IMG/VR virus record: IMGVR_UViG_2627853910_000005
DNA length: 39,175 bases
Source: a virus
Taxonomy: Duplodnaviria > Heunggongvirae > Uroviricota > Caudoviricetes
Strand: one strand, 5' to 3'
The position numbers and the translations under genes were made by a program. The notes beneath the pieces are model-generated. The model was not told the DNA's origin. It did not search any database and saw nothing but the letters and a program-made list of their open reading frames with translations. Positions 14,629 through 15,324 of this stretch are shown piece by piece. Position 1 is the first letter of the stretch. Every line of letters begins with the position of its first letter.

Positions 14629-14929
14629 AACGCACACCTCCGGAAATACCTTCCCCAAGATGCATCAGTTCTTCGTCCGTTCGCTCCGGTATCCCGTTCT
14701 CTTCCGGTAAAAGGCTGAAATCAGCCACCGCAGCATCACTGCTGCCGGACACCATTCTCACGATCAATGCCTTCAGCGAGGCAAACTGCGCATCCATCCA
14801 CACATCACTGAAGCTCTGCATCCGGAAATAATCGCCCCACTCACCAAGCTCAGTGGCCGACATTTCCGACAGCATCCGCCGCCAGTCTGCCCGCCGGAAC
14901 TCCCGGGCAAGCCGCATGACAAACTGCAT
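14600..14929 (-). CDS. T: T segment of the tail assembly chaperone G-T (made only as a -1 frameshift fusion)
   Basis: ORF in the -1 frame relative to G, overlapping the G 3' end. This frame only opens within the last ~20 nt of G. Position and frame relationship as in the lambda G/GT pair. Confidence 0.55.
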   Translation of the reverse strand: MQFVMRLAREFRRADWRRMLSEMSATELGEWGDYFRMQSFSDVWMDAQFASLKALIVRMVSGSSDAAVADFSLLPEENGIPERTDEELMHLGEGISGGVRYGPDSQPGH

Positions 14930-14937
14930 TTCCCGCG

Positions 14938-15324
14938 TCAGGACTTTTCCGGCGTCAGCGCCTCATGCTCATCATCCACGGCATTATCAATGGCCCCCAT
15001 ACCGCTCAGCGACAGAACCATCTCCGCCCCCGCACCCAGGGCATCATACGACCATGTTGTAATAACGGATGCGCAAAGCGTCTCTACATCCTTAGACTGA
15101 TCCGCATTCCACAGTGAGCGGGAAACCAGCCAGGCATTGATATCCATCCCCATCCGCAGAAAAGCAATCTGTCGTTCAGCCTCCGGCAGTTCTCCCTCCC
15201 CGGCATCAAACTTTGCCGTTCGCTGCTGAACAAACGTCAGATATTCAATTCTCTGCAGCCCGGACAGCTCACTGAGCACCACGGACTGTTTTTCATAATT
15301 AAACGTGTCCTGTTTCAGAAACAT
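14938..15324 (-). CDS. G: Tail assembly chaperone G
   Basis: Product from MFLKQDTFNYEKQSVVLSELSGLQRIEYL resembles lambda gpG (MFLKTESFEH...SELSALQRIEHL). SD GGTGGAG upstream of the tandem ATGs at 15322-15327. Confidence 0.8.
   Translation of the reverse strand: MFLKQDTFNYEKQSVVLSELSGLQRIEYLTFVQQRTAKFDAGEGELPEAERQIAFLRMGMDINAWLVSRSLWNADQSKDVETLCASVITTWSYDALGAGAEMVLSLSGMGAIDNAVDDEHEALTPEKS

What the first reader, a model, noticed from the sequence alone, without database searches (positions are those of the whole stretch)
14929..14953. G-T programmed -1 frameshift with a non-canonical slip sequence
The T frame only opens within the last ~20 nt of G, so frameshifting must occur there. Lambda uses GGGAAAG; the corresponding sequence here on the minus strand is CCGGAAAAG (plus 14944-14952). 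The lysine codon could slip AAG to AAA while the P-site GAA re-pairs with GGA through a G:U wobble. The G/GT ratio mechanism therefore seems conserved but with a variant heptamer.
Basis: partly seen in the sequence, partly recalled or inferred. Interest (0 to 1): 0.35.

Follow-up and report, generated by a model that had tools for sequence, protein, structure and literature searches.

The report
Phage tail-chaperone G/GT frameshift site
This is the ordinary ribosomal −1 frameshift site that lambda-like phages use to make a small amount of a G-T fusion protein for tail assembly; its G_GAA_AAG slip sequence differs from lambda's but is the commonest form among the relatives sampled and is already annotated in phage N15.

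Summary
On the minus strand, gene G (15327..14938, Pfam Phage_TAC_2) is followed by a T reading frame (Pfam Phage_tail_T) in the −1 frame. That frame opens only 22 nt before the G stop. The only slip-capable site in the overlap is G_GAA_AAG (14950..14944), which occupies exactly the codon pair where lambda has G_GGA_AAG.

The heptamer is not a sequencing error: it is invariant in 142 of 142 close relatives. It is also not a rare variant. Among 25 G-protein clusters from Enterobacterales phages and prophages, 17 carry G_GAA_AAG and only 3 carry lambda's heptamer. The GenBank record of phage N15 already marks GGAAAAG at the homologous position as the "slippery sequence for −1 translational frameshift".

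Heptamer positions 1, 4 and 7 are conserved beyond codon usage. The T frame aligns without gaps from the slip site onward, whereas the ATG that databases annotate as the T start is not conserved.

I found no conserved downstream RNA structure, no conserved upstream SD-like element and no Rfam frameshift element.

So this is a known kind of recoding site that is simply not annotated in this phage lineage (mEp460/cdtI-like). This copy sits in a prophage that has lost its portal-to-V genes. Frameshift efficiency and the tRNA-Glu G·U re-pairing remain untested.

The parts
14938..15327 (-). Gene G, the tail assembly chaperone. It encodes 129 aa from the first ATG and ends ...ALTPEKS, with its stop TGA at 14940..14938.
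   Evidence: Pfam PF06894 Phage_TAC_2, E = 3.8e-40, covering residues 2-122. PGAP names the identical gene 'gpG: phage tail assembly chaperone G'.
14944..14950 (-). Slip heptamer G_GAA_AAG. The 0-frame codons are CCG GAA AAG and the −1-frame codons are GGA AAA G. The Lys codon is AAG at 14946..14944.
   Evidence: Read directly. It is homologous to lambda G_GGA_AAG and identical to the heptamer annotated as the slippery sequence in N15. It is invariant in 142 of 142 close relatives and present in 17 of 25 family clusters.
14600..14962 (-). T reading frame, −1 relative to G. It spans 120 codons plus a stop at 14602..14600. After the slip, the predicted G-T fusion is 128 aa of G followed by 114 aa of T, 242 aa in all (...TPEK|VLTREMQFVMRLAREF...).
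   Evidence: Pfam PF06223 Phage_tail_T, E = 5.1e-15. The frame aligns without gaps to 24 other lineages from the slip site onward.
14963..14965 (-). TGA in the −1 frame. It closes the T frame upstream and so limits the shift window to 22 nt.
14927..14929 (-). ATG that databases use as an independent T start (109-aa product). It is probably not the functional start.
   Evidence: Annotated as the T start in mEp460, E. coli E2865 (PGAP), PhiR55_1 and Tritos. An ATG at this position (offset 5 after the slip) occurs in only 2 of 25 clusters; elsewhere the first ATG falls 9 to 23 codons after the slip site, and one cluster has none.
11563..14628 (-). Tape-measure gene H. Its start overlaps the end of T by 29 nt. 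G and GT act on its product.
   Evidence: Pfam TMP_2, TMP_4 and Tape_meas_lam_C. The CDS limits follow the homologous mEp460 and E2865 annotation.
15385..15575 (-). 3' remnant of the major tail gene V. The rest has been deleted.
   Evidence: blastn against mEp460.
15347..15364 (-). Intrinsic terminator hairpin plus T-run between V and G.
   Evidence: It is annotated as a rho-independent terminator in mEp460.

Best explanation
This is the programmed −1 ribosomal frameshift site of the lambda-type tail assembly chaperone genes G and T in an mEp460/cdtI-like lambdoid prophage. Most ribosomes translate G to its TGA and produce the 129-aa G protein. A small fraction slip back one nucleotide on CCG GAA AAG. 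tRNA-Lys moves from AAG to AAA, where it pairs cognately. tRNA-Glu moves from GAA to GGA, giving G:C, G·U and A:U pairs. Translation then continues in the T frame and yields a fusion protein of about 242 aa (...TPEK-VLTREMQF...). By analogy with lambda, the G part of the fusion binds the tape-measure protein and the T part recruits the tail tube protein, and a fixed low GT:G ratio is needed for tail assembly. Shown here: gene identity, gene order, the frame relationship, the unique slip-capable site, its homology to the lambda and N15 sites, and nucleotide-level conservation. Inferred, not shown: that shifting actually occurs, its efficiency, and whether the P-site tRNA-Glu re-pairs. In this particular window the prophage lacks its portal-to-V genes, so the site is probably an intact relic and not in current use.
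For: Pfam hits identify G, T and the tape-measure gene. T is in the −1 frame and open only 22 nt before the G stop. The lambda heptamer G_GGA_AAG sits at the homologous codon pair, with GK in lambda and EK here. The N15 record annotates GGAAAAG at the homologous site as 'slippery sequence for -1 translational frameshift'. In 293 loci grouped into 25 clusters at 80% G identity, an in-frame A_AAR lies at the same aligned position in every case; the heptamers are G_GAA_AAG in 17 clusters, G_GGA_AAG in 3, G_GCA_AAA in 2, A/C_GAA_AAG in 1, G_GAA_AAA in 1 and A_AAA_AAG in 1. Conservation goes beyond codon usage. G at position 1 is found in 23 of 25 clusters against 9.9 expected, across Pro, Ala, Leu and Thr codons (P about 3e-8). 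AAG is found in 22 of 25 against a 35% background (P about 5e-8). GAA is found in 19 of 19 against 58% (P about 4e-5). These P values are not corrected for phylogeny. The T-frame translation aligns without gaps from the first residue after the slip site in all 25 clusters ((V/A/I)xxxExxFxxxLAxEFxRxDWR), whereas the first ATG ranges from codon 5 to codon 23 or is absent. Single G·U mismatches in the −1 frame are tolerated thermodynamically in the dnaX context (PMC6787027).
Against: There is no protein evidence for a fusion. In a reconstituted E. coli translation system, AUG GAA AAG served as the less slippery comparison sequence ('only one tRNA can slip') and gave mainly 0-frame product (PMC6924986). 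In vivo, the A_AAG tetramer without a stimulator is barely above background, 0.147% against 0.112% (PMC4066793). I found no stimulator: the consensus structure energy is −1.23 kcal/mol with no covariation, the downstream fold z-scores are −0.18 and +0.28 in the window and all above −1.7 in the 25 lineages, there is no conserved SD-like element, and there is no Rfam hit. Lineages with A or C at position 1, or with GCA in the P site, show that P-site re-pairing is not strictly required. The prophage copy in this window is defective.
Confidence: 0.85

Rival explanations
1. The frameshift and its product are the same, but only one tRNA slips. tRNA-Lys alone moves from AAG to AAA on the A_AAG tetramer, possibly while it sits in the P site waiting for the slowly decoded next codon or the nearby stop. 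tRNA-Glu on GAA does not re-pair with GGA.
For: A_AAR is the only element invariant across all 25 clusters. One clade has A or C at position 1 and two clusters have GCA as the P-site codon. All four clusters with the poorest P-site re-pairing have the G stop codon directly after the slip codon. [quoted passage not shown] A_AAG is the most shift-prone tetramer in E. coli.
Against: G at heptamer position 1 is kept in 23 of 25 clusters across four different amino acids, while the third position of the codon before it varies (ACG/ACA/ACC/ACT). That pattern is what selection on a −1-frame GGA codon would produce. A_AAG without a stimulator is almost inert in vivo, and no stimulator was found.
Confidence: 0.3
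2. T is made on its own from the ATG at 14929, as every database record of this lineage annotates it (109 aa), and no fusion is needed.
For: The ATG exists and is annotated as the T start in mEp460, PhiR55_1, Tritos and by PGAP. In this lineage the ATG-initiated product would still contain the conserved LAREF...DWR block and the Pfam T domain.
Against: An ATG at this position occurs in only 2 of 25 clusters. In 12 clusters the first ATG is 23 codons downstream, inside the conserved DWRxML motif, and one cluster has none. The only purine-rich stretch upstream (GCGGGAA) ends 1-2 nt before the ATG, too close to act as a Shine-Dalgarno sequence. The −1 frame stays open back to the heptamer in every lineage. 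From general knowledge of lambda (Levin, Hendrix and Casjens 1993), only gpG and gpGT are made; I recall this and did not re-read the paper here.
Confidence: 0.07
3. The heptamer is a chance or decayed feature in a dead prophage, with no recoding in this genome.
For: The prophage lacks 5.5 kb covering the portal-to-V genes. GGAAAAG occurs 11 times in the window by composition alone.
Against: The G/T/H region is 99-100% identical to that of viable phages such as PhiR55_1, mEp460 and Tritos. G and T are intact, and the site is conserved family-wide. Decay of this one copy would not change what the element is.
Confidence: 0.05

Closest known systems
Bacteriophage lambda G/GT −1 programmed frameshift (G_GGA_AAG)
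   Same: The G and T proteins are homologous, the gene order V-G-T-H is the same, T is in the −1 frame, and the slip site is at the same aligned codon pair. The A-site codon AAG and tRNA-Lys are the same, and no stimulatory structure is evident.
   Different: The P-site codon is GAA (Glu) instead of GGA (Gly), so the −1 re-pairing has a second-position G·U pair and is not cognate. The G stop lies 1 codon after the heptamer instead of 5. G is only about 32% identical to lambda G.
Phage N15 genes 14/15 (GenBank NC_001901, misc_feature 10027..10033)
   Same: The heptamer is the identical GGAAAAG, in the same frame and at the homologous site. The record explicitly annotates it as 'slippery sequence for -1 translational frameshift'.
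   Different: N15 G is about 32% identical to the window's G, and its G stop is 5 codons downstream. To my knowledge the N15 annotation is a prediction and has not been tested experimentally.
A_AAG tetranucleotide −1 frameshift sites (IS elements; E. coli survey by Sharma et al. 2014, PMC4066793)
   Same: The A_AAG slip is decoded by the single E. coli tRNA-Lys. The site would fall into this class if the P-site tRNA does not take part.
   Different: Those sites depend on a downstream pseudoknot or hairpin, or on an upstream SD-like element (0.15% without, up to 5.6% with). No such element was found here.
E. coli dnaX A_AAA_AAG
   Same: It uses the same A-site codon, tRNA-Lys and −1 direction. 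VT1-Sakai uses this very heptamer in its G/T junction.
   Different: dnaX has both an upstream SD-like element and a downstream stem-loop and reaches 50-80% efficiency. Here there are no stimulators, and a low level (a few percent or less) is expected.

Membership tests
Lambda-type tail assembly chaperone G/GT programmed −1 frameshift | An upstream ORF homologous to lambda G | tested here: met
   Pfam Phage_TAC_2, E = 3.8e-40, well above the curated cut-off.
Lambda-type tail assembly chaperone G/GT programmed −1 frameshift | A downstream overlapping ORF homologous to lambda T, in the −1 frame relative to G | tested here: met
   Pfam Phage_tail_T, E = 5.1e-15. The frame relationship was read directly.
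Lambda-type tail assembly chaperone G/GT programmed −1 frameshift | Location between the major tail protein gene and the tape-measure gene | tested here: met
   A V remnant lies upstream and TMP (Pfam TMP_2, Tape_meas_lam_C) downstream. The intact relatives have the order V-G-T-H.
Lambda-type tail assembly chaperone G/GT programmed −1 frameshift | A slip-capable sequence inside the short G/T overlap, conserved among relatives | tested here: met
   G_GAA_AAG is the only candidate in the 22-nt overlap. An in-frame A_AAR sits at the same aligned position in 25 of 25 clusters.
Lambda-type tail assembly chaperone G/GT programmed −1 frameshift | T lacks a conserved initiation site of its own | tested here: met
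   The position of the first ATG ranges from codon 5 to codon 23 or is absent, while the protein alignment starts at the slip site.
Lambda-type tail assembly chaperone G/GT programmed −1 frameshift | Production of a G-T fusion protein at a low fixed ratio to G | not testable with these tools
   This needs a reporter assay, western blot or mass spectrometry.
Canonical X_XXY_YYZ slippery heptamer | Both the P-site and A-site tRNAs keep their first two anticodon pairs after the −1 shift (XXX and YYY are homopolymeric triplets) | tested here: not met
   The A site is satisfied (AAG to AAA). The P site is not: GAA to GGA places a G·U pair at the second codon position (the same point is made in PMC6924986).
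Z_ZZN tetranucleotide −1 motif (A_AAG) | An in-frame A_AAG decoded by tRNA-Lys | tested here: met
   GA A_AAG at 14947..14944.
Z_ZZN tetranucleotide −1 motif (A_AAG) | An associated stimulator (a downstream structure 5-9 nt away, or an upstream SD-like element) | tested here: not met
   There is no conserved structure and no covariation. Fold z-scores are about 0. No SD-like element is conserved; the window's lineage has only a weak GAGG 10 nt upstream.

The most novel reading that the evidence does not exclude
G_GAA_AAG is the predominant slip site among the lambda-type G/T loci sampled, yet biochemists have used the same sequence as a less slippery comparison sequence. Suppose it delivers lambda-like frameshifting of a few percent in vivo without any RNA stimulator. 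Then either a second-position G·U re-pairing by tRNA-Glu in the P site is far better tolerated in cells than assumed, or an unrecognised stimulator is at work, such as the nearby stop codon or slow next codon, or the nascent G C-terminus (...TPEK). The lineages with the worst P-site re-pairing all have a stop codon directly after the slip codon, which hints at such a compensating signal.
Probability: 0.15. Interest if true: 0.45.

Novelty: already known. Interest (0 to 1): 0.18.

Why it matters
The main value is for annotation. Five database records of this very common prophage lineage were inspected and all list G and T as two separate genes; the lineage is present in 1,847 of 5,426 complete E. 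coli genomes. The real product is most likely a G-T fusion made by ribosomal slippage. A minor scientific point also remains. The family's commonest slip sequence breaks the textbook X_XXY_YYZ rule, and I found no measurement of its efficiency in vivo. A simple reporter comparison of G_GAA_AAG with G_GGA_AAG would show how phages with the weaker heptamer set their G:GT ratio.

Tried and rejected
- **Downstream stimulatory RNA structure.** RNAalifold on 25 lineages gave −1.23 kcal/mol and no compensatory pairs. The window's own downstream 80 nt and 40 nt fold no better than shuffles (z = −0.18 and +0.28). Per-lineage z-scores are all above −1.7. A GC-rich hairpin recurs about 34 nt downstream in many lineages. 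It is too far away to act as a stimulator, it lies in the conserved LAREF..DWR coding block, and the consensus fold did not support it. Rejected.
- **Upstream SD-like stimulator.** None is conserved in position or strength. The GAGG 10 nt upstream in the window's lineage is weak and lineage-specific.
- **Known RNA families.** There is no frameshift element in Rfam, only a chance sR41 match at E = 0.24.
- **Sequencing error hiding a canonical heptamer.** Rejected, because the heptamer is identical in 142 of 142 close relatives.
- **Transcriptional slippage.** A run of four A's is far shorter than the runs known to cause RNA polymerase slippage. This rests on general knowledge and was not pursued.
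- **Literature.** Xu, Hendrix and Duda 2004 is not held. Full-text searches for GGAAAAG or 'GAA AAG' together with phage tail terms found no paper reporting this heptamer in a phage. Searches on phi80/Lula and mEp460 gave nothing relevant. I therefore could not establish whether G_GAA_AAG was ever tested experimentally in a phage.
- **Sampling.** The first two viral-contig scans returned only near-identical sequences. Diversity came from the genome-contig scan and from an alignment headed by a distant member.

Full report
**1. What is in the sequence**

Reading the minus strand, an ORF runs from the ATG at 15327 to a TGA at 14940..14938. It encodes 129 aa ending ...EHEALTPEKS. It matches Pfam Phage_TAC_2, the lambda tail assembly chaperone G family (E = 3.8e-40).

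The frame one nucleotide back (−1) is closed by a TGA at 14965..14963. It is then open from 14962 to a stop at 14602..14600, which is 120 codons. It matches Pfam Phage_tail_T (E = 5.1e-15).

Downstream lies a 1,021-aa tape-measure gene (14628..11563; Pfam TMP_2, TMP_4 and Tape_meas_lam_C). Upstream are an intrinsic terminator (15364..15347) and the 3' end of the major tail gene V.

A ribosome can therefore enter T from G only within the last 22 nt of G. In that stretch the 0-frame reads G GCG CTG ACG CCG GAA AAG TCC TGA. The only in-frame slip-capable site is G_GAA_AAG at 14950..14944.

**2. Is it more than chance?**

The 7-mer alone is not significant: it occurs 11 times in the window against about 6 expected. 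The signal is positional and comparative.

- Lambda's G_GGA_AAG (L003 1110..1116) falls on exactly the same aligned codon pair. Lambda reads ...SAGK|VFDGELSFALKLAREM and the window reads ...TPEK|VLTREMQFVMRLAREF.
- The region is 97-100% identical to that of the phages PhiR55_1, mEp460, Tritos, cdtI and Ayreon. It occurs in 1,847 of 5,426 complete E. coli genomes.
- The heptamer is invariant in 142 of 142 members of the window's own G cluster. A sequencing error is excluded.

**3. Family survey**

I collected 293 loci that encode G homologues. They came from IMG/VR, from one genome per GTDB species, and from annotated phages. For each locus I extracted the G stop, the −1-frame opening and the in-frame A_AAR site. 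The loci fall into 25 clusters at 80% G identity. Their heptamers are:

| Heptamer | Clusters | Examples |
|---|---|---|
| G_GAA_AAG | 17 | the window, Fels-1, phi80, mEp043, N15, and Xenorhabdus, Buttiauxella, Atlantibacter, Phytobacter and Superficieibacter prophages |
| G_GGA_AAG | 3 | lambda, an Stx2a phage, and Symbiopectobacterium and Serratia prophages |
| G_GCA_AAA | 2 | |
| A/C_GAA_AAG | 1 | Morganella-type |
| G_GAA_AAA | 1 | |
| A_AAA_AAG | 1 | VT1-Sakai |

The "non-canonical" heptamer is thus the commonest form in this sample, and lambda's is a minority form.

The sample was seeded with relatives of the window and of lambda. The clusters are not phylogenetically independent, so the proportions are only indicative.

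**4. Already annotated**

The RefSeq/GenBank record of phage N15 carries a misc_feature "slippery sequence for -1 translational frameshift" at 10027..10033. That sequence is GGAAAAG, in the same frame and at the homologous position. By contrast, none of the records I inspected for the window's own lineage annotate slippage. These are mEp460, Ayreon, E. coli E2865 (PGAP), PhiR55_1 and Tritos. They list G and a separate T; four start T at the ATG at 14929 or its equivalent, and Ayreon starts it further downstream.

**5. Evidence for selection on the nucleotides**

- Heptamer position 1 is G in 23 of 25 clusters. The codon carrying it encodes Pro, Ala, Leu or Thr (CCG, GCG, CTG, TTG or ACG). The expectation from codon usage in the same genes is 9.9 (P about 3e-8).
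- The slip codon is AAG in 22 of 25 clusters, against a 35% AAG share of Lys codons (P about 5e-8).
- Glu in the P site is GAA in 19 of 19 clusters, against a 58% background (P about 4e-5).
- These P values ignore shared ancestry and are therefore overstated. The pattern is still clear, because the third position of the next codon upstream varies freely (ACG/ACA/ACC/ACT).

**6. T is a fusion domain, not an independent gene**

The −1-frame translation aligns without a single gap from the residue immediately after the slip site in all 25 clusters, as (V/A/I)xxxExxFxxxLA(R/H)EFxRxDWRxML. The first ATG in that frame is at codon 5 in the window's lineage. In the other clusters it is at codon 9, 15 or 23, or is absent. 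In 12 clusters it lies inside the conserved DWRxML motif.

In the window the purine-rich stretch before the ATG ends only 1-2 nt upstream, which makes a poor Shine-Dalgarno arrangement. In this one lineage an ATG-initiated T would still contain the conserved block. Independent initiation therefore cannot be excluded from the sequence alone, but it is not what is conserved.

**7. Mechanism**

tRNA-Lys can re-pair cognately from AAG to AAA. Conservation of G at position 1 supports a contribution from the P-site tRNA.

Other evidence points the opposite way.

- Peng et al. [quoted passage not shown] They obtained mainly 0-frame product in a reconstituted system.
- Sharma et al. 2014 (PMC4066793) found A_AAG without a stimulator barely above background (0.147% against 0.112%). 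With a pseudoknot it reached up to 5.6%.
- Bock et al. 2019 (PMC6787027) showed that single first-position G·U mismatches cost only about 5 kJ/mol in the dnaX context. They did not test second-position mismatches.

I looked for stimulators and found none.

- There is no consensus downstream structure (−1.23 kcal/mol, no compensatory changes).
- There is no excess folding in the window (z = −0.18 and +0.28) or in any of the 25 lineages.
- There is no conserved SD-like element, and no Rfam frameshift element.

The site therefore appears to be a bare heptamer, as I recall is the case in lambda, probably with a low efficiency. Whether that efficiency is lambda-like (a few percent) or lower is unknown.

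One pattern may be relevant. The four clusters with the poorest P-site re-pairing (A/C_GAA_AAG, G_GCA_AAA twice, G_GAA_AAA) all have the G stop codon immediately after the slip codon. This suggests that a slowly decoded A site can compensate.

**8. Context of this copy**

Relative to mEp460, the window joins mEp460 position 3020, near the 5' end of the portal gene, directly to position 8540, near the end of V. This removes 5.5 kb covering the portal, protease/capsid, decoration, Z, U and V genes. The junction is absent from all 5,426 complete E. coli genomes. It is present in one IMG/VR contig. The prophage here is defective, and the intact G/T site is probably a relic in this genome.

**9. 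Verdict**

The feature is a standard, already known recoding signal: the lambda-type G/GT −1 frameshift, using the heptamer that N15's record already labels. It is merely unannotated in this lineage.

The residual open point is the in-vivo efficiency and tRNA mechanics of G_GAA_AAG. This is of modest specialist interest.

Noticed in passing
window 15574/15575 (junction); context 15115..18591: The prophage is a deletion derivative. Relative to mEp460, 5.5 kb is missing (most of the portal gene, protease/capsid, decoration, Z, U and most of V). This fuses the start of the portal gene to the last ~190 nt of V, with about 2 nt of microhomology (TA) at the joint. The junction is in none of 5,426 complete E. 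coli genomes but is in IMG/VR contig UViG_2579778654_000002.
   Followed up: yes
window 15347..15364 (−) plus T-run: There is an intrinsic terminator hairpin (GCCCCGGTTATTCGGGGC followed by TTTTTT) between V and G. mEp460 annotates it as rho-independent, and it would attenuate transcription into G/T/H.
   Followed up: partly
window 23855..24294 and 20423..20839 (−): Two full-length Rfam cspA thermoregulator matches (160 and 105 bits) indicate that the prophage carries cold-shock-protein genes.
   Followed up: no
loci L223/L220 (Morganella-type), L238, L239, L281: The lineages whose P-site codon re-pairs worst after a −1 shift (A/C_GAA_AAG, G_GCA_AAA, G_GAA_AAA) all have the G stop codon (TAA or TAG) immediately after the slip codon. 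This may be a 'shifty stop' that compensates for the weaker heptamer.
   Followed up: partly
loci L201-L213 (genome-contig scan): Lambda G/T DNA at 100% identity sits on contigs, several of them short or with coverage near 1, in assemblies of unrelated bacteria (Neobacillus, Oceanobacillus, Kitasatospora, Shewanella, Pseudomonas, Leeuwenhoekiella, Psychrobacter and others). This is almost certainly lambda control-DNA contamination.
   Followed up: no
window 14961..14964 (−), 10 nt upstream of the heptamer: A weak SD-like GAGG lies at dnaX-like spacing (10 nt) upstream of G_GAA_AAG in the window's lineage. It overlaps the −1-frame TGA and is not conserved in other lineages.
   Followed up: partly
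window 14600..14628 (−): The tape-measure gene starts at the ATG at 14628, preceded by GGAGG, and overlaps the end of the T frame by 29 nt. The purely mechanical ORF call from a TTG at 14658 is 10 codons too long compared with the annotated homologues.
   Followed up: partly
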